From positions 420 to 64,419 of the forward strand of contig CADBEF010000008.1 of NCBI GenBank assembly GCA_902793555.1: a stretch of 64,000 bases of DNA, read 5' to 3'. Numbering within the stretch: the stretch's first letter is position 1; each line of letters starts with the position of its first letter. The translations under genes were made by a program, and so were the position numbers. This document shows, in pieces, positions 8,112 to 49,189 of this stretch. The notes under the pieces were generated by a model. It had not been told where the DNA came from, ran no database searches, and worked only from the letters and a program-made list of their open reading frames with translations. The stretch is from an uncultured bacterium (GTDB taxonomy: Bacteria; Verrucomicrobiota; Kiritimatiellia; RFP12; UBA3636).

Positions 8112-8139
8112 CCCGACCATCAAGACCATCCCGACCATG
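8112..8139 (+). repeat. Three 9-bp units (cccgaccat / caagaccat / cccgaccATG) ending in the start codon of the CE4 gene
   Basis: Member of the GACCATNNN leader-repeat family seen at seven gene starts. Confidence 0.85.
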
Positions 8140-8845: not shown

Positions 8846-8871
8846 GCGCGGGCGCCCCGGCGTCCGCGCGC
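8846..8871. terminator. Possible bidirectional hairpin between convergent genes
   Basis: gcgcgggcgcc cc ggcgtccgcgc: 11-bp imperfect stem with one mismatch. No clear U-tract. Confidence 0.25.
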
Positions 8872-9785: not shown

Positions 9786-9936
9786 GGGAGGGACGAGGGA
9801 CGAGTGACGAAAGACGGGGGACGAGGGAATCGTGGCGGGGAAAACGTTGGAAATCATACACGCAACGGTTCGGATTGTCACGAAGAATCGGGCAAGCGCC
9901 TGGCACGGATTCAAACAGGAATTGGCACAAAAATGA

Positions 9937-9965: not shown

Positions 9966-10014
9966 TAATGCTGTCTTCAGGATGAATTCCGACCATCTGC
10001 CCCCACCCGCACCG

Positions 10015-10055
10015 CATTCATCATTCAGCATTCAGCATTCAGCATTCAGCATTCC
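10015..10055 (+). repeat. Heptanucleotide microsatellite (CATTCAG)4 with partial flanking units
   Basis: cattca t cattcag cattcag cattcag cattcag cattcc. Lies in the 5' leader between the promoter candidate and ATG 10074. Confidence 0.95.
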
Positions 10056-18173: not shown

Positions 18174-19366
18174 GAAGAACGATCCTCCCCCTGATTTCCG
18201 CCGCCGCGCTTCTTGCGCCGGCCGCCAACGCCGCGGAACCCGCGGCCGCAACCGCCGAACTTCCCGCCTGGCGCGACGCGCAGGGCGCCGGGCGCGGTGC
18301 GTACACGGTCGCCGTCCTCGGCGACACGCACTTCGACGCGGCGCCGGAGTCGGTCTACCATTCGCACTACGACGAGTCCAACCGCTACGCGAAGGTCCAG
18401 CACGAGGAGTTCCGCCGCAACGGCGAGATGTGGGCCCCCGGCGGACGCTGCCGATCGCTCGTCGCCGCCGGCGCGGCGCTCGCCGCCGCGGACCCCGCCA
18501 CGCGCTTCGTCCTGCAGCTCGGCGACCTCGTGCAGGGCGACTGCTACGACGACGGCGACCACCGCCGGATGCTCGACGACGGCCTGGCCGCCGTCCGCGG
18601 CCCCTTCCCCGCGGGCCTGCCGTTCCTCGCGGTCCTCGGCAACCACGACTACCGCGGCGCCGCCAGCGCGCGCGGCGTCACCCTCCGCTGGTTCGACGAG
18701 CTCCTCTCGCGCGAGACCGGCGCGCCGGTCTCCCTCCCGCTCCTCTCCTTCCGCGTGGACGACGACCGCTGGATCCTCTGCGACTTCGAGACGGTGGACC
18801 TCCTCGCCCTCGCGCGCGAGGTCGAGTCCGACCCGGACGCGCGCTACGTGTTCCTCGTCACGCACGGCCCCCTCACCGCGCCGGACGCGGCGAGCTGGCG
18901 CTGGAGCCTCAGCGGCTGGCCGAACAAGGGCGGCTGCGGGCGCGGCGTCCAGGAGCTCTTCGAGGCGGTCTCGCGCCGCCGCGCCATCGTGCTCTCCGGC
19001 CACATGCACTGGACGGCCTTCTTCCGCAACGAGAATCCGCTCGGCGGCTACACCGAGCTCACCGTCAACTCCGTCTGGAAGTCCGACGAGATCGCCACCG
19101 CCGAACCCGTCAACGACACCCCCGCCCAGTACGGCCTCCGCCGCCGCGACAAGGTGAACGCATGGGACCTCAAGGACTACGACGCCGCGATCGCACGCTA
19201 CAAGGCGGGCCTGAAGGAATACTTCCTCGGCCTCGGCGCGGGCCACTACCGCCTCGAGATCTCCGACGACAAGGTCCTTGCGCGCTTCTATCCCGGCGCC
19301 GCGACCGAGCCCGCGCGCACGTTCGATCTAACCCCAGGCAAGCCGCTTTGCGGCCGTGACGAGTGA
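18170..19366 (+). CDS. Metallophosphoesterase (calcineurin-like), secreted
   Basis: 'VAVLGDTHFD', 'LQLGDLVQGD', 'VLGNHDY' motifs. Signal peptide 'MRRTILPLISAAALLAPAANA'. ATGA overlap with the upstream gene. Confidence 0.85.
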   Translation: MRRTILPLISAAALLAPAANAAEPAAATAELPAWRDAQGAGRGAYTVAVLGDTHFDAAPESVYHSHYDESNRYAKVQHEEFRRNGEMWAPGGRCRSLVAAGAALAAADPATRFVLQLGDLVQGDCYDDGDHRRMLDDGLAAVRGPFPAGLPFLAVLGNHDYRGAASARGVTLRWFDELLSRETGAPVSLPLLSFRVDDDRWILCDFETVDLLALAREVESDPDARYVFLVTHGPLTAPDAASWRWSLSGWPNKGGCGRGVQELFEAVSRRRAIVLSGHMHWTAFFRNENPLGGYTELTVNSVWKSDEIATAEPVNDTPAQYGLRRRDKVNAWDLKDYDAAIARYKAGLKEYFLGLGAGHYRLEISDDKVLARFYPGAATEPARTFDLTPGKPLCGRDE

Positions 19367-19423
19367 AGAGTGAAGAGTGAAGAGTGAAGAGTAAAGAGTG
19401 AAGAGTGAAGAATGAAGAGTGAG
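19361..19423 (+). repeat. Heptanucleotide microsatellite (GAGTGAA)n, 9 units (variants gagtaaa, gaatgaa, gagtgag)
   Basis: Overlaps the TGA stop of the phosphoesterase (19364-19366) and contains the first ATG (19412) of the next gene. Confidence 0.95.
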
Positions 19424-21027: not shown

Positions 21028-21057
21028 TTGACACGCGCGCGCGAAGTTTGGTAGTTT
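21028..21057 (+). promoter_or_regulatory. Sigma70-like promoter TTGACA-18-TAGTTT, followed by a conserved ~80-nt leader and AAGGAG RBS
   Basis: cttgacacgcgcgcgcgaagtttggtagttt. A paralogous copy sits at 32219-32248. Confidence 0.45.
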
Positions 21058-21138
21058 TATCCCCGAAGGGGCGCCCCGGAAGGGACGAACCTCTTTTTAA
21101 AGGCCCGACAATCACACGATTGATACAAGGAGATTCCC

Positions 21139-26730: not shown

Positions 26731-27869
26731 AAACGCCTGTCCTTTCCGCCGACTTTCCCGGCGGCAACGTCCGCGTCCTCGGCATCGAGGGCGACACCGT
26801 CCACCTCGCGCCCGATCTGCGCGAGACGCAGCGCTTCTGGTTCTTCTGGCGCTTCCGCGCGACGTTCCCGGCCGCGGGGACATGGCGCTTCGAGTTCCCG
26901 GACGGCAATTGCGTCGGGACGCGCGGGCCCGCCGTGCGTCGAGCTGGCGAGCGTGCCTGGCGCTGGCTCTCCGGCGACGCGCTCCACGAGTCCGACCGCG
27001 TCTTCGAGTGGACGTCCGCCGGGACGGAGACGGTCGAGTTCTGCCAGTGCATCCCGTACCAGGGCGCGGACTTCGACGCGTTCGCCGCGTCCTTCGCGGG
27101 CGACCCGCGCGTCACGGTCGCCGAGCTCTGCCGCTCGCGCGCCGGGCGGTCCGTCCCGCTGCTCCGCCTGCGCGAAGGCGAGCCGGCGCAGGCGGTGCTC
27201 TTCACCTGCCGGCACCACGCGCAGGAGTCGATGGCGTCCTTCGCGCTCGAGGGACTGCTCCGCGCGCTCGCGTCGGACGAACCGTGGGCGGCGGCGTTCC
27301 GGGGCGCGTTCGAGGTCCTCGCGGTGCCGTTCGTAGACCGCGACGGCGTCGAGGACGGCACGCAGGGCAAGTTCCGCCTCCCGCACGACCACAACCGCGA
27401 CTACGGCGCGGCGGGCGGGCACCTCTACCCCGAGTGCGCGGCGCTCGAACGGCTCCTCGACGAGCGGCGGCCCGCCGCCGTGCTCGACCTGCACTGCCCC
27501 TACATCCGCGGCGGCGAGACGAACGAGCACGCCTACCTCGTCGGCATCCAGGCGGAGCGCCTGCGGCCCGCGCAGGCCGCCTTCGGCGCGCTGCTCGAGA
27601 GGCGCTGCCCGCCCGAGTCGCCCTACTTCGCCGCGGACACGCTCCCCTTCGGCGCGCTGTGGAACCAGCCGACCGACTTCTCCGGCGGCTCCGGCATGGG
27701 CTTCTCGCGCTGGGCGGCGGCGAAGCCCTGGCCGCGCCTCGCGAGCGGCATCGAAATCCCCTTCGCGAACTTCCGCGAGAAGACCCAGACGCCGGACACA
27801 ATCCGCGCATTCGGCCGCGGCATCGCCGCCGCCCTCGCCGAGTTTCTCGCTACGCCCGCAAGGGGTTGA
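26727..27869 (+). CDS. M14-like zinc hydrolase (carboxypeptidase / AstE-AspA-like fold)
   Basis: 'CRHHAQESMAS' (HxxE zinc motif), 'HDHNRDY', 'LDLHCPYIRGGE'. Start overlaps the giant gene stop (ATGA). No signal peptide. Confidence 0.65.
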   Translation: MKTPVLSADFPGGNVRVLGIEGDTVHLAPDLRETQRFWFFWRFRATFPAAGTWRFEFPDGNCVGTRGPAVRRAGERAWRWLSGDALHESDRVFEWTSAGTETVEFCQCIPYQGADFDAFAASFAGDPRVTVAELCRSRAGRSVPLLRLREGEPAQAVLFTCRHHAQESMASFALEGLLRALASDEPWAAAFRGAFEVLAVPFVDRDGVEDGTQGKFRLPHDHNRDYGAAGGHLYPECAALERLLDERRPAAVLDLHCPYIRGGETNEHAYLVGIQAERLRPAQAAFGALLERRCPPESPYFAADTLPFGALWNQPTDFSGGSGMGFSRWAAAKPWPRLASGIEIPFANFREKTQTPDTIRAFGRGIAAALAEFLATPARG

Positions 27870-27937
27870 CACCACCCCGCCACGCCCCGGGTGGGGTCGC
27901 ATGGCACGGATTCAGCCAAGATTCGGCACGGAAACAA

Positions 27938-27966
27938 TTGCCGCGTGTGCGCGCGTTCGCTATAAT
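27938..27966 (+). promoter_or_regulatory. Sigma70-like promoter TTGCCG-17-TATAAT
   Basis: ttgccg cgtgtgcgcgcgttcgc tataat, ~105 nt upstream of ATG 28071. Confidence 0.5.
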
Positions 27967-28012
27967 CGGTTTCAAACTTGTGGCCCTTCCGCCCTCGTCC
28001 GGCCGTACGCCA

Positions 28013-28073
28013 GCCCAGACCATCCAGACCATACGACCATACGACCATACGACCATCTGACCATCCGACCATG
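28013..28073 (+). repeat. Leader repeat array: seven degenerate 8/9-bp units (cagaccatc cagaccata cgaccata cgaccata cgaccatc tgaccatc cgaccATG) ending in the start codon
   Basis: Preceded by the conserved module 'cggccgtacgccagcccaga', which recurs at 37465-37487. Confidence 0.9.
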
Positions 28074-31000
28074 AAACGCATCCTCCCGCTCCTCCTCGCC
28101 GCCGCGGCCCTGTCCGCCCGCGCCACGGTCCAAGGCACCGACTTCGAAAAGAAGATCGCCTTCACCCCCTCGTCCACCGCGCTCGCGAAGATCGGCGAAA
28201 CGGCTTGGGCGGACTTCCCCGTCCTCGTGCGGCTTCCGGCCGCCGTTTCGTCCCAGTTGCAGAGCGCGAATGGGACCGACCTTTACGTCGAGGATGAGAA
28301 CGAAGTTCCGCTTGCGTTCGAGGTCGAGTCGTTTGACCCGGCCGGCACGACGCTCGTCTGGGTCAAGGTGCCGTCGCTTTCGTCCGCAACGGTGCTCAAC
28401 GTTTTCTTTGGCGGTTCAGCGAACGCCGACAACGACCCGACCGCCGTCTGGTCGAACTACGTCGGCGTGTGGCACTTCCCCGGCTCGGCCGCCGGAACGA
28501 CGACCGTCGCCGACGCGACCGGACACTCGCTCGACGGCACGACGACGGGCACGATTTCGACCTACGCCGGCCCGTTCGGCGGCGACACTCTCCAATGCAC
28601 CGAGAAAATCAACGCGCCGGACTACGATTCGCTGCTCTCCAACGTCGCGCAGTTCAGCGTCTCCGGCTGGTTCAAGGCGCCGAACCAGAGCAACGCGTAC
28701 TTCACGTACGTCTCGAAGAAGGCTGACCTGGCCTGGAACGCCGACAAGGGCTGGTATCTTGAAATGTCCCAAAGCAAGACCAAGGCGAACCTGGTCCTGA
28801 CCGGCTCGAACAACTTCACCATTCCGGACGTTTCGGCGAACTGGAACTACTTCCACCTCGTTTCGGACGGTTCGACGGTGAAGGTCTACATGAACGGCTC
28901 CACGAGCGCATCCAAATCGGTATCCTACAAGGTCAAGGCGAGCAGCAAGGTCTTCCTGATCTGCGGCAAGGACGGCTGCTCCGACGAATACCGCGTCCGC
29001 GCCGGCGCTGCGAGCGCGGCGGAGACCGCGCTCGAATACGCGACGATGGCCGATGCGGCGTTCTTCGACGCCGGCGCGATCGAGTCCGTGGATGCAACGG
29101 CGCAGGTCTTCGAGACGCCGACCGCCGTGCGCAACGCGAACGGCTCGACTACGGTCACGGTCGTCCTCTCCGCCTACAATGGCGACGTGGGCGTGATCTA
29201 CGAGGGCGGCGAGACGCCCGTCACGAACATCGTCGCGAACGCCGCCACGCCCGGCACCTACACGGACACGCCGGCGAATCTGGCGGCGGACACGACCTAC
29301 GCATTCTCCGCCTACGGAAAGAACGCGAACGACACCGAGGTCGTCAAAGCGGGCAACATCTTCTACAACGGCGACCTCTCCGTCACGACGGTCTCGGACG
29401 CGAACGAAAGCGGACTCGTCCCCGGCGTCTTCCGCATCTCGCGCGCCGATTCGGCGCACAACCTTACAGTGACCTACACTGTCGGTGGAACCGCCGTTGC
29501 GGACCAGTCCTACGTCGCGCTTTCCGGCACGGCGACGATTCCGGCCGGCGCAACGTACGTGGACGTGACCGTGACGCCGCTCAACGACCCGACCGTCACG
29601 GAGAACGTGTCGGTTGCGCTTTCTCTTGCGTCCGGACTTTACGGCATCTCGGCATCTGCCGGCACGGCGACGATGACGATCGCGAACCTGAACGCCCCCG
29701 CCGGCTTCAACACGTGGGTCGCGTCCGCGGCAGGCCTTGCGTCCGTCAGCAACAACTGGTCCGCCGGCCACCCGCCGAACGCCTCCGAACACGCTCTCTT
29801 CGACGGTCGCTTTTCTTCGGCGAACTGCGAGTGGGACGCCGCCGCATCTGCAACGGTCGCCTCTTGGACGCAGACGAACGACTACGCCGGCGTGATCACG
29901 CTCAAGACGGTCTATCCCGGCAAGGGCGACTTCCAGTGCCTGACCGTGACAGGGCCGATGGCGGTCATGAGCGGCACCATCACCCACCCGCAGTCGCGGA
30001 CACAGGGCCAGAGTGCGACGGATTACCTGCAGGACCTCCTCGACAACGAGACCTACCGCGTCCGCATCGACGCAGGGTCCCTCGTCATCGGACCGGACGG
30101 CCGGATCGACGCCCTCAACAAGGGCTACTACCATTCCAACACCGGCAGCCACACGTCGCCCGAGCCTTCCCACGGCGGACGTCTCTCCGCGTCCGGGCAG
30201 GCCCCCTACGACGACGTCAAGGAGCCGATCCACATCGGCATGCCCTACAAGCGGGATAGCGGCACCTACTATATCGGCATCGGCGGCGGCGCAATCTATC
30301 TCACGTCGACCGGCGCCATCGTCGTGAACGGCTACATCGGGGCCGACACGGGTTCCGACACGTGGAACCGCGGCTACACGCTCCGCGGCGGCGCGGCGGC
30401 GGGCTCCGTCTATGTCCGCGGCGCCTCCGTCACCGGCTCCGGCACGATCTCCGCAAGCGCGCTGAAGACGGACGAGCAGAAGTACCGCGGCGTGGGCGGT
30501 CGCGTCGCCGTCATCGCCACCTCTTCGACGCCGATCGACTACACGACACTCCAGCTCAAGGCAACGGTCTATCCGTTCAACAACAACAACGGGCAAAGCT
30601 CGACATACGGCGGGTGCGGCACGGTCTTCGTCAAGGACGGCACGATGACGAACGGCGTCCTCATCGTGCGGAATTTCGACCTGACCTTCGCCGAAGACGC
30701 ATCTGGACGCCGGACCGATGTCACGGCCGAAGGCGACTGGACCTTCGATCGGCTCGAGCTGGGAGGAGGGGTGCAGTTGTCCGTTCCCTACGGAACGACC
30801 CTCACGCTCCCCGGCTGGGACTGCGTGACGGCCCCGGCCAACAACACCGGCACCGGAACGCCATCCGGGTTCATCTACCGGGGCGGAACGCTCGACTTCG
30901 GCTCCGCCGCGGAAGTCATGTTCTCCGGCCACTGGTATTTCGCCCCGATTTCGAACTACGTCTTCAACGCGGACGTCTCGCTCGCGGACGGCGCCGCGAT

Positions 31001-32218: not shown

Positions 32219-32248
32219 TTGACACGCGCGCGGGGAGTTTGGTAGGTT
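32219..32248 (+). promoter_or_regulatory. Sigma70-like promoter TTGACA-18-TAGGTT (paralog of 21028-21057) plus a conserved leader and GGAG RBS
   Basis: cttgacacgcgcgcggggagtttggtaggtt. The ~110-nt leader is ~75% identical to the leader upstream of 21139. Confidence 0.45.
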
Positions 32249-32327
32249 TCGACCTGAAGGGACGCCCCATCCGGGCGGACCTGCTTTCAAAGCCCGTCAA
32301 TCACCCGGTTGACACGTGGAGATTCCC

Positions 32328-35300
32328 ATGAAACATCCGTTCGCTCTCGTTGCGGCCGCGCTTCTCGCGGGCGCGCTCGTTCTCCCCTCCGCGCGCGCGG
32401 CGGACGCGGACGCCACCGGCCTCGTGCCCACGATCTGGTGGGACTTCGAGACCAAGCCCAGCGCCTCGGGCCTCGCCACGGCGAACAAGGGCGCGACCTA
32501 CCAGGCGGGCGTCACGAACGGCTGGGCCGTTGACACGTCGAAGTTCACGCCGTATTCGCAGGCGAACGGCGCCTTCTCGACGGCCGGCGGCGCCTACACC
32601 GTGTCCCTCGTCATGAACCTCGGGACGACCAAGAACGGCATCACGCTGAACCTCCGCAATGAAACCGGCGAAAGGGACCTGATCGTCCGCCGCGGTTCGA
32701 CCGCGGGCTCGCTCGTCGTCGGCTGCGACGTCTGGAAGGTCGCCACAAGACACAATCTCACGACGACGTTCGAGGACGACTCGACCTACCATCTCGTCTC
32801 CGTCGTCGTGGAGGAGTCTGGCTTCTCGCTCTACGTGGACGGCGAGTTCGTCGGGTCCGAGACGGGCTTCACCCTGTGGACCGCCACGGGCCGCGCCAGC
32901 CGCCTCCAGTTCGGTGCGCACCTCAGCGGCATGCCCTCCGGCGAGGCGAAATACGGCGGCTGCATCGACGACCTGCGCATCCACGACGCGGCGCTCACGC
33001 CCGCGCAGATGAAGCTGATCGCCGCCGAATACGGCCTTGCCTCCATCGATGGCTTCATCGCCGTCGTCCCGTCCGGGGAACCGACGGTCGGAACGGATTC
33101 CTTCCGCGCGCCGTTCGCCCTGCGCGTGCCCGAGGGCGACGCGGCCGAGGCCGCGATCGTCTACGGCACGGACGCCGCGCTGTCGGCCCCGGCCACGAAC
33201 GTCGTCGGTTCGGCGCTGACGGCCGGCAACTACGAGGCGTTGCTTCCCAATCTCGTGTCTGGCACGACCTACTGGTGGAAGATCGTCGCGAGCAACGGCG
33301 TCAACCGGGCCGAGACGGACGTTGCGTCATTCCGCACGCTCGACGTGATCGTCCCGACGGACTACGCCAGGCGCATTCCCGCCGTCCTCTCCGGCTATGC
33401 CGGAACGGATACGCTCACGAATTTCCCCGTTCTCGTGAAGCTCGCGGCGGACGCGCCCATCGGCTTCGACTACGCCGACTGCGCGGAGGATGGCGCGGAC
33501 ATTCGCTTCGCGACTCCGGACGGCACGGTGCTGCCGCACGAGATCGACACGTGGAACACGAACGGCGAGTCGTTCGTCTGGGTGAAGATCCCGGCGATCT
33601 CCGGTACCGCTACGGCGTTCTCGATGTACTACGACGCGCCGGACCCGGCGGCGCTTCCGCCGGTCGATCCGCACGACGTCTGGACCGCGGCCGGGCACCG
33701 CGCCGTGTGGCACTTCGCGACAAACGCGACGGAATCCGCGCAGGGTCTGGTCGCCTCCACGGCCACCGGCACGCCGTCCTACGCGAACGACGGCGCCGTC
33801 GGCAAGTGCTGGCAGAGCGCGGGCGAGGCGTGGTTGCAGTACGCCAACGACGCCTCGTGGAGCGCACTCGGCGCGGGTTCGACGCTCACGATTTCCACCT
33901 GGGCCAAGTTCGACTCCACTTCCTATGGCTACAACCGCATCCTCTCCACGATGTCGACCTGGGAACAGCCGGCCGGCTACGAATTGACCGTCCAGGACGA
34001 CAAGAACGAGATCACCGTCGGATCGAGCGGGAAAAGCCAGTACCAGAAGGTCGTTTCGCCGGGCCCGTCGGACGAGATGGTCTACCTCACGGCCGTCTAC
34101 AACGCCGACCGCTACGCGGACCTCTACGTGAACGGCGTCCGGCAGGAGCACAAGCAGCTCAACGCGGTCGTGCAACCGACGGAGACGATGACGGTCGCCT
34201 GTTTGGCCGGCGGCGGCAACGTCTGGAACGGCTCCCTGGACGAGCTCCGCCTCCACGCGGCCGCCGAATCGGCCGACTGGGTCAAGGCCTGCTACGACAC
34301 GATGGCGACGCCGGCGTCGTTCGTCGCCCTCTCGCCGGCCGAGTCGACCGACCCCGACCTGCCGCGGTTCGGCGCGCTCTCCGCGTCCGATGCGAACGGC
34401 GTCGCAACCTTCACCGCTCCGCTCGCCGTGCCCGGCTACGGCGGCGAAGTCCCGACCTCCGTCTCGGTCTTCTACGGGACGGACGGCGAAACCTGGACGG
34501 AGCTTTCCCTCGGTTCGACGAACGAGGCCGCGACGCTGACCGTCTCGGCGTCCGGGTTCGCGGTCGGCGTCCGGTACCTCTGGTACGCCGTCGCCACCGC
34601 GACGAGCGGCGGCACGCCCAAGACGACGGTCTCCCAGCCGCAGTCGTTCGTCGCCAGGGCCTTCGATCCGACGGGGAACTACAAGTCCTTCACGGCGACC
34701 GTCGTCTGGGACGGCGCGCCCGCGGAGAACCTCCCGTTCCTGCTGCGCATCTCCGAGGGCGGCGTCAACGGCTTCGACTACGACGACGTCACGGCGTCCG
34801 GCCTCGAGATCCTCGACGCGGACGGACAGCTGCTTCCCTTCGAGATCGACACGTGGAACACGAACGGCGAATCGCTCGTCTGGGTCCTCCCGCCCGTCTA
34901 CGAGGACGGTGCGACGGTCACGGTCCGCTACGGCGCCCCGTTCGCCAACGCGCCGCTCCCCGCGACGAACGTCTGGACGGCCTATGTCGCCGTGTGGCAC
35001 ATGAACGAAATCCTCGTGGACGCCGAGTCCGGCAACCACTACACGCCCGATTCCACCGCGAGCGGCTGGCATGCCTTCAAGTCCGACGAGGCGGACGCCG
35101 TTCTGTCGCCTGTGACAACCGCGCCCGGCGCCTCCGCGCATCCGACGCCCCTCACCGGAACGGCGATGAACATCGCCTACGGCGCAGGGAAGTCGAGCTC
35201 GTCCCTCGGCGGCTTCCGCGTCCCGGCGGACCAAACCTCCTCGACCACGCTGGACGGCCCCGGCTTCACGCTCTCCGCCATCGTCAACTCGCAGCAGGCC

Positions 35301-37375
35301 GCCAACGACGGCCGCTGCCGCGTGATCGCCTTCGGAAACGAATACAACGACAGGGCCAACTTCGCGGTCGGCTCCGACAAGATCTACTGCATGGGATCCA
35401 ACTCCCACAACAAGACCAATCCGAAGGGCGCGACGGGCTGGGTCTACGCCGCGGACGTCTTCAACTCGCCGTATTCGAAGATCTACGCCGACGGCGTCTG
35501 CCTTTCCGCCAGCAACGAGGGCAACCCCAACCTCGCTAGCCTCACGCTCGACAAGGGCATCGGCCTCGGCTGCTTTACGGGCGGCAAACAGTGCCTCGAC
35601 GGCTACCTCGACGAGGCGCGCATCCGCAACGCGGCTTCGACCGCCGACTGGATCGCCGCCGAATACCACACGATGGCGGACGGCGCCGTCTCCTTCTCCT
35701 CCGTTTCGTCATCCGACACGTCCGTCCCCGTTCTCGGGACGCCGTCCGTCGCGCGCAACCCGGACGGCTCGTTCACCGTCTCGGTCGCCGTTTCCGAAAA
35801 CGACCCCGCGTCGATCGCCTGCATGATCGGAGGGACCGACTACGCGATGACGCCCGCGAACGCATCGCTCCCAACGACGTATTCCGCCACGGTTTCCGAT
35901 CTCGCGCCCGGCACCTACGTCGCGTCCGTCCATGCGACGGCGACGAGCGGAACGTCCGTTTCCTCGACCTGCCCGGACGCCTTCCACGCCGGAGCGCTGA
36001 CGATCGTAAAGATTTCCGACGCCGACGAAGGCACGCTCTCGCCCGGCGTCTTCCGTGTCTCGCGTGCGGACGCCGATTCCACGAGCCTGCCGGCGCTGAC
36101 GTTCGACGTGGCGTTCTCCGGCCCCGGGCTCGCCGGGATCGCCGATCCGGGGATTTCGGCCGCCACGATCCCCGCCGGCGCGGCGTATGTCGACATCGCC
36201 GTCACGCCCATTCCGAACGATGCCGTGAACGAGAATCTCGAACTCGTCCTGACCGTCTCGGGCGCGCACGTCGGCCAATCCTCCACCGCCTCGCTGACCG
36301 TCGTGAACTCGAGTTTCGACCTGGCGGTCCGCTACGTCGCCACGACCGGCAACGACGCCAACTCCGGCGGCACGCCCGAGTCTCCCAAGAAGACGATCGC
36401 CGCCGCCGTCGCCGCCCTCGGCCCCATCGCGCCGACGCGGACCTGCACCGTCCACGTCGCGCCGGGGCTGTACCCGATCACGTCGCCGATCGTCGTCACG
36501 AACGCGATTTCCGTCATCGGCGATGATTCGGACCCTTCGCGCGTTATCGTATCGAATACAGTGCCAAGTGGCAACGCAAGCCAGGAACATCGGGTGTTTA
36601 TCATTGCGAATGCCGACGCTCTTATAGCCAACCTGACGATGCAGAAGGGCGAAGCCTACAGCCGGAACGGGGGCAACTTCAACATCGGCACGGCTGGCGG
36701 CATGGTTTCCAATTGCGTGGTGGAAGCGGGCTATGCACGCGACAACGGAAAGGCGGCCGGTGCCTGGCTCGATGCGGGCGTCGTCACGCACACGGTCTTC
36801 CGGAAGAACTATTCGAGTGCCGGATCCGTCACCTGGGAGGGCGTTCGTGCGGGGCTTCTCCAGCTCAACGGCCAGGCCCGCGCCGAAAACTGCCTCTTCG
36901 TCCAGAACAACCAGACCGCATCCGTCCGGCTGATCAACGTGCACGGCTCCTCGGTCATGCGCAACTGCACGATCGCCGATTCGTCCCTTTCGAAGACGAA
37001 TGACGCCTGCACGACGTGGTGCGTACTCAACATCGCCTCCGGCGCGACCGTGCAGAATGTCGTGATCGCCGGCGTGACGAACACGATCGACGGCGCGACC
37101 TGCGCGATCACGGGGACCGTCGCGAACTTCCGGAACGGCGCGTTCGACGGCGACGCGACACGGCGGCTTCGTTCTTCCCGCACTACGCGAAGAACGTCCC
37201 CTACGCGATCAAGTACCAACCCAAGGCCGGCGGCCCGCTCTACGACAAGGGCGCCGACTACGCGCCGATGGCCGCGTTCGACCTCTCGGGGACGCAGAAG
37301 CGCAAGATCGCCTCGCATATCGACATCGGCTGCTACGAGGCGAACGGAGCTGCAACGGTGGTCATCGTGAAATGA
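32328..37375 (+). CDS. Giant secreted LamG/DUF2341/beta-helix protein, paralog of 21139-26730. Carries an apparent -1 frameshift near 37155-37170, so it is a possible pseudogene or a sequencing error
   Basis: Signal peptide 'MKHPFALVAAALLAGALVLPSARA'. Main frame runs to ~37160 ('...NGAFDGDAT'). The authentic C-terminus '...ASFFPHYAKNVPYAIKYQPKAGGPLYDKGADYAPMAAFDLSG...GCYEANGAATVVIVK' is in the -1 frame (ORF 37016-37375). Relative to the paralog, a ~45-nt, non-triplet deletion sits at this point. Confidence 0.6.
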
Positions 37376-37458
37376 ACCCCGTCCTTTCCGCGGACTTTCC
37401 CGGCGGCGGCGCGGTGGTGCTCGGCCCCGACGGCGCAACCGTCCGCCTCGCGAACCCA
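37372..37458 (+). pseudogene. Remnant of the M14-like gene 5' end (first ~29 codons: 'MNPVLSADFPGGGAVVLGPDGATVRLA'), fused in-frame to the downstream leader repeat and GH16 gene
   Basis: Nucleotide and protein homology to 26727-26815 ('MKTPVLSADFPGGNVRVLGIEGDTVHLA'). Homology ends at ~37458, where the 'cgtacgccag...gaccatcc' leader module begins. Confidence 0.6.
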
Positions 37459-37483
37459 ACGCCCATCGTTCGGTCGTACGCCA

Positions 37484-37512
37484 GTCCAGACCATCCGGAC
37501 CATCCGACCATG
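37484..37512 (+). repeat. Leader repeat (cagaccatc cggaccatc cgaccATG) ending in the GH16 start codon
   Basis: Same family as 28013-28073, with the same upstream 'cggtcgtacgccagtcca' module. Confidence 0.9.
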
Positions 37513-38411: not shown

Positions 38412-38493
38412 CTAGCCCATCCAGACCATCCCGACCATCCCGACCATCCCGACCATCCCGACTATCCAGACCATCCAGACCATCCCGACCATG
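38412..38493 (+). repeat. Tandem array of nine 9-bp units (consensus GACCATCCC; one 'gactatcca' variant) ending in the ATG of the GH10-like gene
   Basis: cccatccagaccatcccgaccatcccgaccatcccgaccatcccgactatccagaccatccagaccatcccgaccATGccc. Confidence 0.95.
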
Positions 38494-39933
38494 CCCTCCC
38501 CGCTCTCCCCCGCCTACTACGACCGCTGGAACGCCGACGAACAGGCGCGCATCGACGCGGACATCGAGAAATACCGCAAGGCCGACGCGACCGTCGCGCT
38601 CGGTGCCCCCGCCGGCGCCGAGGTGACGGTCGAACAGACCACGCACGCGTTCCGCTTCGGCGCGCACACGTTCAACTTCGACCAGCTCGGCTCGCACGAG
38701 CGCAACGAGCGCTACAAGGCGCTCTGGAACGGCGCCTTCGCCGACGGCGCGCTCTTCAACTCCGGCACCATCGCGTTCTACTGGCGCCCGTTCGAGCCCG
38801 TCGAGGGCAAGATGCGCTTCGACCCCGCCCCCGAGGACTCGGAGGACTGGTGGAACGCCTGCCCCGACCCGAAGGAGCAGCGCTTCTGGCGCCGCCCGCC
38901 GAGCGAGCCCGTCGTGCGCTTCCTGGAGGACAAGGGCGCCTGGCGCCACGGCCACCCGCTCGTCTGGTCCAACCACGAATGGCACTATCCGGACTGGCTC
39001 ATGGCGAAGCTCCCCAAGGAGATCATGGCCGAGATGCTCACGGACGACCGTTCCGGCGTCTCGATCATGAAGCAGCCGATGGAGACGGTCCTCAAGCGGC
39101 TCCCCGCGGACTTCCCCGCCCAGGTCGAGTCCGCGCACCGCCGCCGCATCGAGGCCATCGCCGCGCGCTACGCCGACCGCGTGGACAGCTGGGACGTCTG
39201 CAACGAGAGCGCGAACGACTGGACCGCCGGCCGGCTCGTCCGCGGCGCCCCGCTCTCCCGCAGCTACCGCTTCTCGTGGCTGCCCGGCGACTACTGCCAC
39301 TGGGCCTTCCGCGAGTGCATGCGCCTCTTCCCCGCGAAGAGCGTCCTCTCGATCAACGACTACCAGCTCGACGCCGACTACGCCGAGCAGACGCGCGACC
39401 AGCTCGCCCGCGGCGACAAGATCGACCTGCAGGGCATGCAGATGCACCTGTTCAACCCCGCGGACTGCGAGGCGATCGCGCAGGGGAAGATCGAGCTGCG
39501 CTCGCCGGCGCACGTCCGCTCGCAGATCGCCGCCGCGCACGCGCGCCCCGGCCTGCCGATCCACCTCTCCGAGATCACGATCTCCGCGCCCGGCGGCGAC
39601 GAGCGCGGCGAGGTCGTCCAGGCCGAGATCGCCCGCAACCTCTACCGCCTGTGGTTCTCGCTGCCGGACATGGTGGCCATCACCTGGTGGAACGTCGTCG
39701 ACGACTGCGGCGCGCCCGGCGAGCCGTCCGTCTCGGGGCTCTTCCGCCGCGACATGACGCCGAAGAAGGCCTTCTTCGCGCTCGACCGCCTGATCAACGA
39801 CGAGTGGCGCACGCGCCTCACGGCGAAGGCCGACGCCACCGGCGCCGTCGCCTTCCGCGGCTTCCGCGGCTCCTACCGCCTCTCCTGGCGCGACGCCTCC
39901 GGCGCGTCCTGCGAAGCAACCACATCCATCTAG
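38491..39933 (+). CDS. GH10-like glycoside hydrolase (clan GH-A), xylanase-type motifs
   Basis: 'WDVCNE' (catalytic acid motif WDVVNE-like) and 'HLSEITISA' (nucleophile ITE-like). No signal peptide. Confidence 0.7.
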   Translation: MPSPLSPAYYDRWNADEQARIDADIEKYRKADATVALGAPAGAEVTVEQTTHAFRFGAHTFNFDQLGSHERNERYKALWNGAFADGALFNSGTIAFYWRPFEPVEGKMRFDPAPEDSEDWWNACPDPKEQRFWRRPPSEPVVRFLEDKGAWRHGHPLVWSNHEWHYPDWLMAKLPKEIMAEMLTDDRSGVSIMKQPMETVLKRLPADFPAQVESAHRRRIEAIAARYADRVDSWDVCNESANDWTAGRLVRGAPLSRSYRFSWLPGDYCHWAFRECMRLFPAKSVLSINDYQLDADYAEQTRDQLARGDKIDLQGMQMHLFNPADCEAIAQGKIELRSPAHVRSQIAAAHARPGLPIHLSEITISAPGGDERGEVVQAEIARNLYRLWFSLPDMVAITWWNVVDDCGAPGEPSVSGLFRRDMTPKKAFFALDRLINDEWRTRLTAKADATGAVAFRGFRGSYRLSWRDASGASCEATTSI

Positions 39934-39975
39934 ACCAACCCGACCATCAAGACCATCTAGACCATCTAGACCATG
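39934..39975 (+). repeat. Leader repeat (ccgaccatc aagaccatc tagaccatc tagaccATG) ending in the GH2 start codon
   Basis: Same 9-bp family. Contains in-frame TAG codons, so it is not translated from upstream. Confidence 0.9.
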
Positions 39976-41649
39976 GACCCTCTTTCCCTGAACGGCTCCT
40001 GGGCCTTCCGATTCGAGGAGGGCGCCCTCCTCGCCGACGCCGCCCGCCCCGACTTCGAGCCCGCCTGCACGATCGCCGTGCCCGCGTGCTTCGATACGCT
40101 CCCGGACTGGTACCTCCGGCGAGGCGTCGGCCTCTACCGGCGCACGTTCCGCCTCGACCGCGACGTCCCCGCCGCGTGGCTCCGCGTGGACGGGATGGGG
40201 CTCGTCGGAGCCTTCTGGATCGACGGCCGCCCGATCGGCGAAAGCGCCCTCCCCTACTCCACCCTGCGCATCCCGACCGGACCGCTCGCCGCCGGCGAGC
40301 ACGTGCTCGCCGCCGCGCTCGGCAACCGGCTCGACGAGCCGCGCCTCGCGCTCGCCAAGCCCTACTACGACTTCTACCTCCACGGCGGCTTCTACCACGG
40401 CGTCTCGCTCGTCTTCGACGACCGGTCCCTCCGAGTCCGCACGCGCGACATCCGCGACGGCACCGTCGAGATCGAGGTCGTGAACGTCCCGAAGCCCGAC
40501 TTCGGCGCGACGCTTCTCTTCGACGGCCGCAACGCCGTCTCCGCGTCCTTCCGCGGCGGCCGCGCGACCGTCCGCGTCCCGGACTTCCGCCTCTGGTCAC
40601 CGAATTCTCCGAACCTCCACACCGTGGAGCTTGTCGACCATCCCGACCATCCAGACCATCCGACCATCCAGACCAAGTTCGGCATCCGCGCCATCGAGGC
40701 CCGCGCCGGCCGCATCCTCCTCAACGGCGAGCCGATCTTCCTCAAGGGCGCGAACCGCCACGAGGCGCACCCGACCTTCGGCGCGGCGACGCCCGAGGCG
40801 GTGATGCTCGCCGACATCCAGAACCTCAAGGCGCTCGGCGCGAACTTCGTCCGCGGCGCGCACTACCCGCAGGCGGAGCGCTTCCTGGACCTCTGCGACG
40901 AGAACGGCCTCCTCGTCTGGGAGGAGACGCTCGGCTGGGGCAACGGCACGCCGTGGAACGACCCCGCGAAGAAGGAGTTCGCGAACCCCGACTTCCTCGC
41001 GGACAACCTCGCACAGGCGCGGCTGATGGTCGAAAAGTCGTTCAACCACCCGTCCGTGGTCCTCTTCGGCTTCCTCAACGAGTTCGCGAGCGACACGCCC
41101 GACGGCAAGGCCGTCGCCGACCGGATCGTCGCGCAGATCCGCTCCTACGACTCCGGCCGGCTCGTCACCTTCGCGTGCAACCACAACGCGAGCGACATCG
41201 CCAACGAGGCCACGGACGTCGTCTCCTTCAACACCTACCCGGGCTGGATCGGTTCGCAGCCCGGCACGCCGGAGCATCTGCAGGAACTGATGGAGAAGGA
41301 CCTCGCGGGCATCGTCGCGTACTTCCGCTCGAAGTGGCCGGGCAAGCCCATCCTCGTCTCCGAAATGGGCGCGTGCGGCGAATACGGCCGCCACGACGCG
41401 GCCGCGGCGCAGTGGACCGAGGAGTTCGAGGCCGAGTACCTCGCGGACGCCGCGCGCGCCGTCGCCGCGCGTCCGGAGATCTGCGGCTTCACGATCTGGC
41501 AGCTCGCCGACTGCCGCAGCTTCCACCGCGGCGGCGCGGACGTCCGCTGCAAGCCCTTCGCGGAGAACCTCGCCGGGATCTACGACGGCTACCGCCGCCC
41601 GAAGCTCCCCGTCGTCGCCGCCGTCAAGGCCGCCTTTCGTGCCGGCTAG
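39973..41649 (+). CDS. GH2-family glycoside hydrolase (beta-glucuronidase/beta-galactosidase/beta-mannosidase-like)
   Basis: 'LKGANRHE', 'NHPSVVLFGFLNE' (acid/base) and 'ILVSEMGA' (nucleophile). Contains the in-frame DHP repeat insert at 40636-40672. Confidence 0.85.
   Translation: MDPLSLNGSWAFRFEEGALLADAARPDFEPACTIAVPACFDTLPDWYLRRGVGLYRRTFRLDRDVPAAWLRVDGMGLVGAFWIDGRPIGESALPYSTLRIPTGPLAAGEHVLAAALGNRLDEPRLALAKPYYDFYLHGGFYHGVSLVFDDRSLRVRTRDIRDGTVEIEVVNVPKPDFGATLLFDGRNAVSASFRGGRATVRVPDFRLWSPNSPNLHTVELVDHPDHPDHPTIQTKFGIRAIEARAGRILLNGEPIFLKGANRHEAHPTFGAATPEAVMLADIQNLKALGANFVRGAHYPQAERFLDLCDENGLLVWEETLGWGNGTPWNDPAKKEFANPDFLADNLAQARLMVEKSFNHPSVVLFGFLNEFASDTPDGKAVADRIVAQIRSYDSGRLVTFACNHNASDIANEATDVVSFNTYPGWIGSQPGTPEHLQELMEKDLAGIVAYFRSKWPGKPILVSEMGACGEYGRHDAAAAQWTEEFEAEYLADAARAVAARPEICGFTIWQLADCRSFHRGGADVRCKPFAENLAGIYDGYRRPKLPVVAAVKAAFRAG
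40636..40672 (+). repeat. In-frame intragenic copy of the GACCATCCN 9-bp repeat, encoding 'DHPDHPDHPT' in a GH2 inter-domain loop
   Basis: gtcgaccatcccgaccatccagaccatccgaccatccag. The same DNA unit forms the upstream leaders. Confidence 0.9.
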
Positions 41650-49000: not shown

Positions 49001-49140
49001 GGCGGGATTCGGGTTTCGGGAGACGGGTTTCGCGGCGGGTTTCGGCGCGGCGCCGTCGCGCCGCGGGCGGGTTTCGCGAAACCCGAAACCCGAGTCCCGC
49101 GGCGAATCCCGAAATCCGAATCCCGAATCCCGAAATTGCA
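49001..49140. repeat. Imperfect long inverted repeat built from GGGTTTC / GGGATTC heptamers, centred on the 16-bp palindrome gggtttcgcgaaaccc. The right arm is (CGAATCC)-like x5
   Basis: gggattcgggtttcggg...gggtttcgcgaaacccgaaaccc...gaatcccgaaatccgaatcccgaatcccgaaa. Confidence 0.85.
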
Positions 49141-49171
49141 GGCGGGGTGCGGCGACTGCCGCACCCCGCCA
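49141..49171 (-). terminator. Rho-independent terminator candidate for the giant minus-strand gene
   Basis: Perfect 13-bp stem ggcggggtgcggc / gccgcaccccgcc with a 4-nt loop. Starts ~19 nt after the stop (49190-49192). On the transcript it is followed by the U-rich stretch 'ugcaauuucgggauucgg'. Confidence 0.45.
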
Positions 49172-49189
49172 CGACGCACGATGGCGCGC

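What the first reader, a model, noticed from the sequence alone, without database searches (positions are those of the whole stretch)
40636..40672. The same 9-bp leader repeat inserted in-frame inside the GH2 gene (DHPDHPDHPT loop)
The GH2 coding sequence contains four tandem GACCATCCN units, exactly at the junction between the N-terminal beta-sandwich region and the 'FGIR' start of the TIM barrel. They encode VDHPDHPDHPTIQ. The repeat is therefore a portable DNA unit that can sit in coding sequence without breaking the frame. This suggests either recombination with a leader array, or that leader arrays could be translated in some contexts.
Basis: seen in the sequence. Interest (0 to 1): 0.6.

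Follow-up and report, generated by a model that had tools for sequence, protein, structure and literature searches.

The report
Variable tandem repeat inside enzyme loop
A 9-base repeat that normally sits just before start codons in this gut bacterium also lies in frame in a surface hairpin of a GH2 sugar-cleaving enzyme. There it varies from 2 to 8 copies between close strains, and it is one case of a lineage-wide habit of short repeat arrays occupying both gene leaders and protein loops.

Summary
Window 40636-40677 reads GACCATCCC GACCATCCA GACCATCC GACCATCCA GACC-AAG, in frame in a GH2 gene (39973-41649), and encodes DHP-DHP-DHP-TIQTK.

The fourth unit is 8 bp, not 9. This shifts the register from DHP to TIQ.

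It is a coding variable-number tandem repeat at the tip of the last beta-hairpin before the TIM barrel. The closest orthologues have only 10-11 residues there (TVxLDGVRAR). Strains at least 90% identical carry 2, 3, 5 or 8 DHP copies.

The same site holds other 7-9 bp arrays in other alleles: CTCGTCA, GGGAACG, GAACCTGC and CAACTTT. It is the only internal indel site in the family.

GACCATCCN is the tandemly duplicated start-codon context CCGACCATG. In rumen Kiritimatiellae it fills many leaders.

Its reverse complement sits in frame in a CarA gene as (DGR/DGP)n. CarA loops also carry the CTCGTCA, GGGAACG and CAACTTT units at DNA level.

So the unit is portable. A direct transfer from the neighbouring leader is not shown, and how units reach new sites is unknown.

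The closest known cases are TAACTGA/STRR heptamer repeats, Borg tandem repeats and Rickettsia palindromic elements. Nothing comparable was found for Kiritimatiellae. Interest is moderate to high.

The parts
39973..41649 (+). GH2 glycoside hydrolase gene (558 aa) that hosts the array
   Evidence: The ORF is listed and translated. Pfam PF02836 matches at E 5.5e-35. PDB 6ncw beta-galacturonidase matches at E 4.5e-62. Foldseek gives TM 0.80-0.82. N369-E370 and E464 are invariant in alignment A1.
40636..40674 (+). In-frame tandem array: three 9-bp units and one 8-bp unit of GACCATCC(N), plus a partial unit GACC. It encodes DHPDHPDHPTIQT (residues 222-234).
   Evidence: establish the array. Copy number varies among close relatives. 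The AF2 model gives pLDDT below 50 at residues 224-227, between strands 216-221 and 232-236.
40675..40689 (+). AAG TTC GGC ATC CGC (K-FGIR), the conserved strand that follows the array. AAG sits where a leader array would have ATG.
   Evidence: Orthologues have (A/T)R-FGIR here.
39917..39972 (+). Leader array of the GH2 gene (GACCATCTA-type units). It fills the GH10-GH2 spacer and ends gaccATG.
   Evidence: The array is longer in L003 and L090 and shorter in L001. It is absent in L088 and L093, where GH10 and GH2 overlap.
38417..38490 (+). Leader array of the GH10 gene: 8.4 copies of GACCATCC(C/A), ending gaccATG
   Evidence: As RNA its MFE is -0.9 kcal/mol, against -31.8 +/- 7.5 for background windows.
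37485..37509 (+). Leader array of the GH16 gene (about 3 units)
   Evidence: The same leader occurs in metagenome locus L105.
28018..28070 (+). Leader array (GACCATCC / GACCATAC, 8-9 bp units) before the gene at 28071. Its first part encodes the C-terminal tail of ORF 26882-28060.
8115..8136 (+). Short leader array (GACCATCAA GACCATCCC GACC) before the polysaccharide deacetylase gene at 8137
9788..9828 (-). Heptamer leader array (CTCGTCC family on the minus strand) abutting the ATG of an AraC-type regulator gene (8871-9785, minus strand). It is the same unit family as the GH2 loop array of L001, L093 and L029.
19356..19422 (+). Heptamer array (GTGAAGA x9.6) preceded by the hairpin GCCGC-TTT-GCGGC, upstream of the GH20 gene
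   Evidence: Its RNA MFE is 0.0.
10014..10054 (+). Heptamer array (GCATTCA x5.9) 20 nt upstream of the second GH16 gene, whose start context is cccgaccATG

Best explanation
The tract is a coding variable-number tandem repeat (an in-frame minisatellite) in a gut/rumen Kiritimatiellae GH2 enzyme.

Shown:
- It lengthens the tip of the last beta-hairpin of the N-terminal sandwich region, just before the FGIR strand that leads into the TIM barrel. The closest orthologues have a minimal turn there (L-DG-VRAR).
- It changes in 9-bp steps, which keep the frame. Alleles with 2, 3, 5 and 8 DHP are observed.
- An old 8-bp unit fixes the DHP-to-TIQ register switch.
- The unit belongs to a lineage-wide family of dispersed 7-9 bp strand-asymmetric arrays. 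The main habitat of GACCATCCN is the 5' leader, where it is the tandemly duplicated start-codon context CCGACCATG and gives an unstructured, Shine-Dalgarno-less leader.
- Arrays of this and other families (CTCGTCA, GGGAACG, CAACTTT) also occupy loops of unrelated proteins, including CarA and PyrG.
- Alternative array 'cassettes' at the GH2 loop segregate within clusters at least 90% identical. At least one allele (L001) is a short recombinant patch.

Inferred:
- Copy number changes by replication slippage or unequal recombination.
- Arrays persist in coding DNA only where length is a multiple of 3 and the site tolerates any peptide.
- The DHP peptide is a by-product of the DNA repeat and has no catalytic role.
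- How the unit first reached this loop is unresolved.
For: Anatomy and frame:
- The array and its reading frame come, and chance is excluded.
- GH2 identity rests.
- In the 42-orthologue alignment A1 the loop is hypervariable and is the only internal insertion site of 3 or more columns.
- Across 72 parsed loci the loop is 10-47 aa, and about 20 of them have a 7-9 bp array there.

Copy number:
- L003 (93% identical) has 8 DHP with the same tail: 8-bp unit, GACCATCCA, GACC-AAG.
- Members of clusters at least 90% identical have 2, 3 or 5 DHP.
- RHSSxVT alleles occur as 1, 2 or 3 blocks of 7 aa, each equal to three heptamers.

Structure:
- The AF2 model has pLDDT 86.6 and pTM 0.90.
- Strands lie at 216-221 and 232-236, and residues 224-227 have pLDDT below 50.

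Allele history:
- Loop types are not clade-coherent on the loop-masked NJ tree.
- L001 is 93-98% identical to the window except for about 200 bp around the loop, where it is closer to L093.

The unit as start context:
- CCGACCATG occurs at 8 gene starts, two of them with no array next to the ATG.
- In rumen metagenome contigs the unit forms stop-to-ATG leader arrays in front of many different genes.
- Copy number of the same leader differs between contigs: L099 and L115 have 3 copies against about 8 in L132.

Portability into coding sequence:
- CarA in L133 has CGGATGGTC x20.8 in frame.
- CarA orthologues have three hypervariable loops with the same peptide families.
- At DNA level L214 carries GGGAACG x10 and ACTCGTC x4.6 in carA and TCACTCG x4.7 in pyrG, and L215 carries CAACTTT x4.7.

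RNA properties:
- The arrays are essentially unstructured as RNA.
- There is no Rfam match in the window.
Against: - No experiment shows that the enzyme tolerates the insert or that the peptide is functionless.
- Slippage is inferred from copy-number differences, not observed.
- Slippage alone does not explain how identical 7-9-mers appear at unrelated loci and in both orientations. A dispersal step is therefore missing from the explanation.
- All sequences are short-read metagenome assemblies. Copy numbers of long arrays (for example the 187 bp in L133) may be collapsed or mis-estimated.
- Several unit families end at the same nucleotide junction (...ACC | CGN TTC GGC). That could mean one old array evolving in concert rather than repeated colonisation.
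Confidence: 0.78

Rival explanations
1. Origin by ectopic copying from a leader array. A template switch or gene conversion would have copied units from the nearby GH10 or GH2 leader arrays (0.7 and 2.2 kb upstream) into the GH2 loop.
For: - The unit and its CCC/CCA variants are the same as in the GH10 leader.
- The tail ACC ATC CAG ACC AAG mirrors the leader end ACC ATC CAG ACC ATG in the same register.
- Arrays of the same unit do occur in foreign coding contexts, as in CarA of L133.
Against: - L084/L085 and L087 carry GACCATCAA or AACCATCC loop arrays but have no leader array next to GH2.
- The 8-bp-unit architecture is shared at 84% identity, so it is older than the local GH10/GH2 leader arrays. 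Those are missing in L088 and L093, where the two genes overlap.
- No Met is found at the position of the putative ATG in any orthologue. The native residues there are (A/T)(R/K).
Confidence: 0.2
2. An active, sequence-specific seeding or mobility mechanism. A small non-autonomous mobile element, or templated repeat addition at breaks, would deposit arrays of a few unit families at new sites. Selection would then keep only leader insertions and in-frame loop insertions.
For: - Identical unit families recur at unrelated loci, genes, orientations and genomes. GGGAACG, CTCGTCA and CAACTTT occur in both GH2 and CarA/PyrG loops. GACCATCCN occurs in sense in GH2 and antisense in CarA. GACGATCC in L214 is both a leader (18366-18421) and, as its reverse complement, a coding array (15573-15636).
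- Some arrays are accompanied by perfect GC-rich hairpins: the L001 and L029 loops and window 19330-19355.
- Different families occupy the same GH2 site within clusters at least 90% identical.
Against: - No conserved non-repeat ends, target-site duplications or associated transposase or reverse transcriptase were seen in the junctions inspected. No systematic search was made, and gene associations were not tested.
- Leader arrays merge seamlessly with the native start context, which fits duplication in place.
- Homologous recombination of whole cassettes, together with concerted evolution, could account for part of the pattern.
Confidence: 0.3
3. Birth in place. The array arose by slippage from the native loop sequence, so its likeness to the leader unit is convergent.
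For: - Several array families end exactly in ...AC(C) + CGN TTC GGC, merging with the native (A/T)R-FGIR codons.
- L086 has a GC-rich two-unit form, GACCGCCC GACCGTCC (DRPTVR), that looks intermediate between DGVR and DHPTIR.
- Borg tandem repeats are reported to arise independently and to be flanked by partial repeats (PMC9879509).
Against: - The same 8-mer arising independently in leaders, in GH2 and (as reverse complement) in CarA is very unlikely by chance. GACCATCC is expected about 2 times in 64 kb.
- L086 can equally be a decayed array, through A-to-G changes in a 70% GC genome.
Confidence: 0.15
4. The peptide itself is selected. It could be a His/Asp-rich metal-binding or length-tuning loop, or a surface-variation device of the enzyme.
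For: - The DHP repeats are His-rich.
- The insert restores the 19-aa length of the canonical GH2 hairpin (6ncw).
- Borg amino-acid repeats are argued to be under selection (PMC9879509).
Against: - Alternative alleles encode chemically unrelated peptides at the same site: RHSSPVT, GTGNGEQ, PGTCE/NLQTC and LSTFNF.
- The peptide is dictated by DNA unit and frame. Heptamers give 7-aa periods, and the same unit gives DGR/DGP in CarA.
- Many orthologues work with the minimal turn.
- The protein has no called signal peptide at the predicted start, and the N-terminus aligns with cytoplasmic-type GH2 enzymes. Localisation was not formally tested.
Confidence: 0.08
5. The array is a phase-variation (contingency) switch. 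Changes in repeat number would turn the GH2 gene on and off.
For: - Alleles with 7-bp or 8-bp units (L001, L002, L087, L089) would frameshift on gain or loss of a single unit.
- Two cluster members (P0274, P0256) start at Met278, as if the upstream part of the gene were disrupted.
Against: - In the window the units are 9 bp, so slippage keeps the frame.
- All 94 loci have one tblastn HSP across the loop, so no frameshifted allele is seen.
- Heptamer alleles differ by whole 21-bp steps.
- The DNA of P0274 could not be examined.
Confidence: 0.05

Closest known systems
TAACTGA heptamer direct repeats of Beggiatoaceae, Cyanobacteria and Bacteroidetes (MacGregor 2015, PMC4679880); cyanobacterial STRR heptamers (known to me from memory: Mazel et al. 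1990)
   Same: - Both are short tandem direct repeats dispersed at many loci.
- Most lie within a few nucleotides upstream of start codons, in spacers that rarely have a Shine-Dalgarno site.
- Some overlap the stop codon of the upstream gene.
- A minority lie inside ORFs in the orientation that has no stop codons.
- In both cases the dispersal mechanism is unknown.
   Different: - The phylum differs (Kiritimatiellae, 70% GC).
- There are several co-existing unit families of 7, 8 and 9 bp instead of one heptamer.
- The GACCATCCN unit is itself the duplicated start context.
- Here the coding copies sit in internal loops of well-conserved enzymes (GH2, CarA, PyrG) as multi-allelic variable-number repeats. 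The TAACTGA coding copies lie mainly at protein termini or in hypothetical ORFs.
Tandem repeats of Borg elements that create amino-acid repeats (Schoelmerich et al. 2023, PMC9879509)
   Same: - Both are fast-evolving nucleotide tandem repeats found in intergenic regions and in ORFs.
- In ORFs the repeats are in frame and form disordered segments.
- Both show a strand or composition bias.
- Both have hotspots where homologous proteins carry different repeat units.
   Different: - Borg repeats are in archaeal extrachromosomal elements, are A-rich and have longer units.
- They are reported to arise independently at each site and to be nearly absent from the host chromosome.
- Here the repeats are chromosomal and bacterial, and the same few units recur at many loci.
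Rickettsia palindromic elements inserted in frame in protein-coding genes (from memory: Ogata et al. 2000; mentioned in PMC1779305 and PMC10969869, listed, not read)
   Same: Both are selfish-looking repeated DNA that is tolerated inside genes, including housekeeping genes, because it lands in frame at surface-exposed positions.
   Different: The Rickettsia elements are 100-150 bp palindromic, MITE-like units inserted once per site. They are not tandem arrays of 7-9 bp, and no copy-number variation of that kind is reported for them.
GGGNATC quadruplex-forming heptamer repeats of Xanthomonas and Nostoc (Rehm et al. 2015, PMC4692102)
   Same: Both are abundant 7-nt tandem repeats with variable unit number. 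Both are over-represented between co-oriented ORFs and near ORF starts and stops.
   Different: [quoted passage not shown]
- GACCATCCN has no G-tracts.
- Only some families here are G-tract-like (GGGAACG, GGGTTTC).
Simple-sequence-repeat contingency loci (phase variation) of Haemophilus and Neisseria
   Same: Both are tandem repeats within or next to genes whose copy number changes by slippage.
   Different: Contingency repeats switch genes on and off, using units of 1-5 or 7 nt in a frame-breaking position. The window's array has 9-bp steps and no off alleles were found.

Membership tests
Glycoside hydrolase family 2 (host gene) | GH2 TIM-barrel domain preceded by beta-sandwich domains | tested here: met
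   Pfam PF02836 matches at E 5.5e-35 over residues 242-495. PDB 6ncw beta-galacturonidase matches at E 4.5e-62. The AF2 model against 6ncw gives TM 0.80-0.82.
Glycoside hydrolase family 2 (host gene) | Catalytic acid/base Glu in the N-E motif and a nucleophile Glu | tested here: met
   N369-E370-F371 and E464 are invariant in the 42-sequence alignment A1. Assigning these residues as the catalytic pair rests on general knowledge of GH2, not on a test made here.
Coding variable-number tandem repeat / minisatellite | Head-to-tail copies of one unit inside an ORF, with the frame preserved | tested here: met
   There are four units plus a partial unit, in frame.
Coding variable-number tandem repeat / minisatellite | Copy number differs among close relatives while the flanks stay conserved | tested here: met
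   Alleles with 2, 3, 5 and 8 DHP have identical flanks and tail. The window-L003 flanks are 93-100% identical.
Coding variable-number tandem repeat / minisatellite | Located where the protein tolerates length change | tested here: met
   The site is a hairpin tip with pLDDT below 50. It is the only internal indel site in A1. The loop ranges from 10 to 47 aa among orthologues. Tolerance is inferred from the persistence of intact genes, not measured.
Dispersed short direct-repeat arrays of the STRR / TAACTGA type | The same short unit repeated in tandem at many separate loci of a genome or lineage | tested here: met
   The window has at least 6 arrays of GACCATCC-type units. Many rumen contigs carry them in front of different genes.
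Dispersed short direct-repeat arrays of the STRR / TAACTGA type | Mostly intergenic, ending within a few nucleotides of a start codon | tested here: met
   The arrays end in gaccATG at 8137, 28071, 37510, 38491 and 39973. Of 17 high-GC metagenome loci, 14 are stop-to-ATG leaders.
Dispersed short direct-repeat arrays of the STRR / TAACTGA type | The unit is the heptamer TAACTGA (or STRR1-3) | tested here: not met
   The units here are GACCATCCN (9 bp), CTCGTCA, GGGAACG, CAACTTT and others. The arrays work like that class but are not members of the same sequence family.
Phase-variable contingency locus | Unit length or position such that slippage switches expression, with on and off alleles in populations | tested here: not met
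   The unit is 9 bp. All 94 loci are in frame across the loop. Heptamer alleles differ by 21-bp steps.
MITE / transposon-derived insertion (including the Rickettsia palindromic element type) | Terminal inverted repeats or conserved ends, and target-site duplication | tested here: inconclusive
   No such ends were seen at the junctions inspected. Hairpins adjoin arrays in L001, L029 and window 19330-19355. No systematic search was made.
Known structured RNA families (Rfam) | A match at the gathering score | tested here: not met
   There were 0 matches in the whole window. The arrays are predicted to be unstructured.

The most novel reading that the evidence does not exclude
Gut and rumen Kiritimatiellae may have an active, sequence-specific process that seeds arrays of a small set of 7-9 bp units at new chromosomal sites, in either orientation. 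It could be mobile-element-like or a templated repeat addition. What we see would be what survives selection. The survivors would be unstructured, Shine-Dalgarno-less leaders abutting start codons, which may be used for translation initiation, and in-frame inserts in surface loops of enzymes, including essential ones such as CarA and PyrG. The GH2 DHP loop would be one footprint of this process.
Probability: 0.3. Interest if true: 0.85.

Novelty: new variant of a known kind. Interest (0 to 1): 0.64.

Why it matters
- It shows that in a little-studied gut phylum, protein loops and translation leaders share one pool of short repeat units. DNA-level repeat dynamics therefore write peptide sequence directly into conserved enzymes. 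Heptamers read in three frames give 7-residue peptide periods.

- It gives a natural set of permissive insertion sites: one hairpin in GH2 and three loops in CarA. It also gives multi-allelic length markers that could serve for strain typing in rumen and gut metagenomes.

- The leader arrays are duplicated copies of the start-codon context. They offer a testable handle on Shine-Dalgarno-independent initiation in a 70% GC genome.

- If an active seeding mechanism exists, it would be a new kind of bacterial repeat mobility.

- For annotation, the point is practical. Such tracts should not be read as domain boundaries, gene fusions or assembly errors.

Tried and rejected
- **Same unit in loop and leader of each genome.** I tested whether the loop unit always equals the leader unit of the same genome, and it does not. 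L001 has GACCA-type leaders but a CTCGTCA loop array. L002 has a GGGAACG loop array and an ACTAACC leader.

- **Gene fusion or internal start.** I considered a fusion of two ORFs, or an internal start codon after the array, and rejected both. All orthologues are continuous, none has Met after the array, and the canonical GH2 architecture is continuous.

- **Assembly artefact.** Rejected, because independent assemblies agree.

- **Known RNA family.** There is no Rfam match.

- **Literature.** A search for Kiritimatiellae plus tandem repeats found nothing relevant. The STRR search returned mostly off-target hits.

- **Metagenome pattern scan.** Many of the at least 120 hits were unrelated sequences from other environments, such as GPS/collagen-like and LTI repeats. 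Only the high-GC rumen subset was informative.

- **My first loop-parsing pattern** missed 26 distant loci. A relaxed pattern still missed 22, which are more divergent paralogues.

- **Truncated cluster members (P0274, P0256)** could mark frameshifted alleles.

- A first translation of the ORF ending in the 28018 array used the wrong frame, and one search corrected it.
Full report
**1. The observation**

- Window 40636-40677 reads GACCATCCC GACCATCCA GACCATCC GACCATCCA GACC AAG.
- It lies in ORF 39973..41649 (+, 558 aa). Base 40636 is the first base of codon 222, so the peptide is V-DHP-DHP-DHP-TIQTK followed by F236-G-I-R.
- The third unit is only 8 bp. That single missing base moves the reading register from GAC-CAT-CCN (DHP) to ACC-ATC-CAG (TIQ).
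- Chance is excluded. The two-unit pattern has 13 hits in the window against 0 in 100 shuffles. The 8-mer occurs 15 times against 1.9 expected, all on the + strand and nearly all within tandem arrays.
- The same unit builds the arrays that run into the ATGs of GH16 (37485-37509), GH10 (38417-38490, 8.4 copies) and GH2 itself (39917-39972). It also builds those before the genes at 8137 and 28071.

**2. The host gene and the site**

- The protein is a GH2 enzyme: Pfam PF02836 at E 5.5e-35, best solved relative 6ncw, a beta-galacturonidase, at E 4.5e-62, and Foldseek TM 0.80-0.82.
- The AlphaFold model (pLDDT 86.6, pTM 0.90) has strands at 216-221 and 232-236. Residues 224-227 fall below pLDDT 50.
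- The repeat therefore forms the tip of the last beta-hairpin before the barrel, which Pfam places from residue 242.

**3. Orthologues**

- A search found more than 1500 relatives, mostly from gut and rumen Kiritimatiellae.
- In a 42-sequence alignment, the stretch between NLH and FGIR is hypervariable. It is also the only internal insertion site of 3 or more columns.
- The minimal state is TVxL-DG-VRAR (10-11 aa). It occurs even in orthologues 72-86% identical to the window protein (P0010, P0013, P0015, P0017).
- Over 72 loci with a parsed loop, the length runs from 10 to 47 aa. About 20 of these loci have a 7-9 bp tandem array there.
- Relative to its nearest relatives, the DHP stretch is therefore an insertion of 27 bp.
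- Distant GH2 enzymes such as 6ncw have a non-repetitive 19-aa hairpin that aligns without gaps. The insert thus happens to restore the canonical length.

**4. Copy-number polymorphism**

- L003 (93% identical; flanks 93-100%) has GACCATCCC x4 and GACCATCCA x3. It then has the same 8-bp unit, GACCATCCA and GACC-AAG, giving 8 DHP.
- Three samples (L090-L092) have 3 DHP with a C-to-A change in unit 1.
- Members of clusters at least 90% identical have 2 DHP (P0248, P0249, P0251), 3 DHP (also as DHP-DHQ-DHP) or 5 DHP (P0243, P0254).
- L084 (84% identical) has GACCATCAA x3, then the 8-bp unit, GACCATCCG and GACC-CGC. The 8-bp register switch is therefore old.

**5. Other arrays at the same site**

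- L001, L093 and L029 carry CTCGTCA heptamers, read as RHSSxVT and present as 1, 2 or 3 blocks of 21 bp.
- L002 and L022 carry GGGAACG heptamers, read as GTGNGEQ. These two alleles differ by 42 bp.
- L089 carries GAACCTGC 8-mers. L087 carries AACCATCC 8-mers.
- L026, L038, L041 and L066 carry CAACTTT/TCAACCTT units.
- Loop types do not follow the loop-masked tree.
- Clusters at least 90% identical mix DHP with RHSS alleles, or with GAACCTGC alleles.
- L001 is 93-98% identical to the window except for about 200 bp around the loop, where it is closer to L093. It is a recombinant patch.
- No frameshifted allele occurs among 94 loci.

**6. What the unit is**

- (C)CCGACCATG is the start context of eight genes in the window. 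Two of them have no array next to the ATG.
- The 9-bp unit is this context duplicated in tandem, with ATC in place of ATG and in frame with it.
- A metagenome scan for three perfect units gave at least 120 hits. Among the 17 high-GC rumen contigs examined, 14 are arrays filling the spacer from the stop codon of one gene to the ATG of the next, in front of many different genes.
- Copy number of one and the same leader differs between contigs.
- The arrays are G-poor and essentially unstructured as RNA. For the 84-nt GH10 leader the MFE is -0.9, against -31.8 +/- 7.5 for background windows.
- No Rfam family matches.
- I infer, without a test, that they serve or are tolerated as unstructured, Shine-Dalgarno-less leaders. 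This was proposed for TAACTGA repeats (PMC4679880).

**7. Portability into coding sequence**

- In L133, a CarA gene carries CGGATGGTC x20.8 in frame, read as (DGR/DGP)n. This is the reverse complement of the unit.
- CarA orthologues from the same lineage range from 370 to 472 aa. They have three hypervariable loops with the same peptide families as the GH2 loop: GEQGTGNGEQ, LVTRHSSLV, SNFQLSTSNFQL and NQTIKQSNNQTI.
- At DNA level, L214 has GGGAACG x10 and ACTCGTC x4.6 in carA. It also has TCACTCG x4.7 plus an inverted array pair in pyrG. L215 has CAACTTT x4.7.

**8. What is not shown**

- A transfer from the neighbouring leader is not supported. Loop arrays exist in L084 and L087 without adjacent leader arrays, and the loop architecture is older than the local leaders.
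- How units reach new sites is open. Three possibilities remain:
  - Ectopic copying from another array.
  - Birth in place. Several families end at the same junction ...ACC|CGN TTC GGC, and L086 looks like an intermediate or a decayed array.
  - An active seeding mechanism. The same units occur at unrelated loci in both orientations, and hairpins lie next to some arrays.

**9. Comparison with what is known, and verdict**

The closest known phenomena are:
- TAACTGA/STRR heptamer repeats (PMC4679880).
- Borg tandem repeats that create in-frame amino-acid repeats (PMC9879509).
- G-rich heptamers of Xanthomonas and Nostoc (PMC4692102).
- Rickettsia palindromic elements (from memory).

The tract behaves like these, but it is not a member of any of their sequence families.

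No report for Kiritimatiellae was found.

Caveat: all data are short-read metagenome assemblies, and nothing was tested experimentally.

Verdict:
- The tract is a real, polymorphic coding tandem repeat.
- Taken alone it is ordinary in mechanism.
- It is notable as part of an undescribed lineage-wide sharing of repeat units between leaders and protein loops.

Noticed in passing
L133 3193-3379; L214 10429-10499 and 10843-10874; L215 3458-3546 and 4032-4064; alignment A2: CarA (carbamoyl-phosphate synthase small subunit) of gut Kiritimatiellae has three hypervariable loops filled with in-frame 7-9 bp arrays. The orthologues range from 370 to 472 aa. The unit families are the same as in the GH2 loop.
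   Followed up: partly
L214 12308-12371, 12698-12730 (pyrG); 14284-15695 (gene 12989-16306); 18272-18421: One 21-kb locus holds about 14 arrays, most of them inside genes, including CTP synthase. GACGATCC occurs as a leader array and, as its reverse complement TCGTCGGA x8, inside a gene of the same locus.
   Followed up: no
window 37372-37509 versus 26727-26830 and 27975-28076: The 139-bp spacer upstream of GH16 is an internally deleted remnant of a paralogue of the ORF ending at 28060. It consists of the 5' ~85 bp fused to the 3' ~45 bp and keeps the flank GTACGCCAG(T/C)CCA plus the GACCATCC array.
   Followed up: partly
window 21030-21140 and 32225-32330: Two near-identical upstream regions (TTGACACGCGCG...AGTTTGGTAG...CAATCAC..GATTGA...GGAGATTCCCATG) precede the two very large genes at 21139 and 32316. 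They carry a Shine-Dalgarno-like GGAGA. This suggests paralogous loci with a shared promoter or leader, unlike the array-led genes.
   Followed up: no
window 49003-49135: An inverted pair of heptamer arrays, (GGGTTTC)n ... (GAAACCC)n, lies between two minus-strand genes and is followed by a terminator-like hairpin at 49140-49175. Similar inverted array pairs occur in L017 (1875-1950), L030, L063 and L214 (14548-14620).
   Followed up: no
window 19330-19422: The hairpin GCCGC-TTT-GCGGC is followed directly by (GTGAAGA) x9.6 upstream of a GH20 gene. It resembles the reverse complement of the L001 GH2 loop element, which is (CGTCACT)n followed by the hairpin GCGGCAGC-GGA-GCTGCCGC.
   Followed up: partly
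window 9788-9828 (minus strand): A CTCGTCC-type heptamer array abuts the ATG of an AraC-family regulator gene (8871-9785, minus strand). It is the same unit family as the coding arrays in GH2 (L001, L093, L029) and in CarA/PyrG (L214).
   Followed up: partly
window 28018-28060: The upstream ORF 26882-28060 ends inside the leader array of the next gene. Its last ~13 residues (QTIQTIRPYDHTTI) are therefore array-encoded. The ORF has no Pfam match, so whether it is a real gene rests on its paralogous remnant at 37372.
   Followed up: partly
L016 3614-3730; L029 4336-4410: Some GH2 loop inserts contain perfect GC-rich hairpins. L016 has a 39-bp direct repeat holding GGTCGCGCTCCCGxGCGACC. L029 has heptamers followed by GCGTGGCGACGACG-GAA-TCGTCGTCGCCACGC, all translated in frame.
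   Followed up: no
proteins P0274 (282 aa, 22.9-kb contig) and P0256: Two members of GH2 clusters at least 90% identical start at Met278 of the full-length protein although they lie on long contigs. This would fit a disruption upstream, possibly at the heptamer array.
   Followed up: no
L028 8485-8630: An 18-copy 8-bp array (GTCCCATC) lies about 55 bp upstream of a Victivallales GH2 orthologue. Leader arrays may therefore extend beyond Kiritimatiellae.
   Followed up: no
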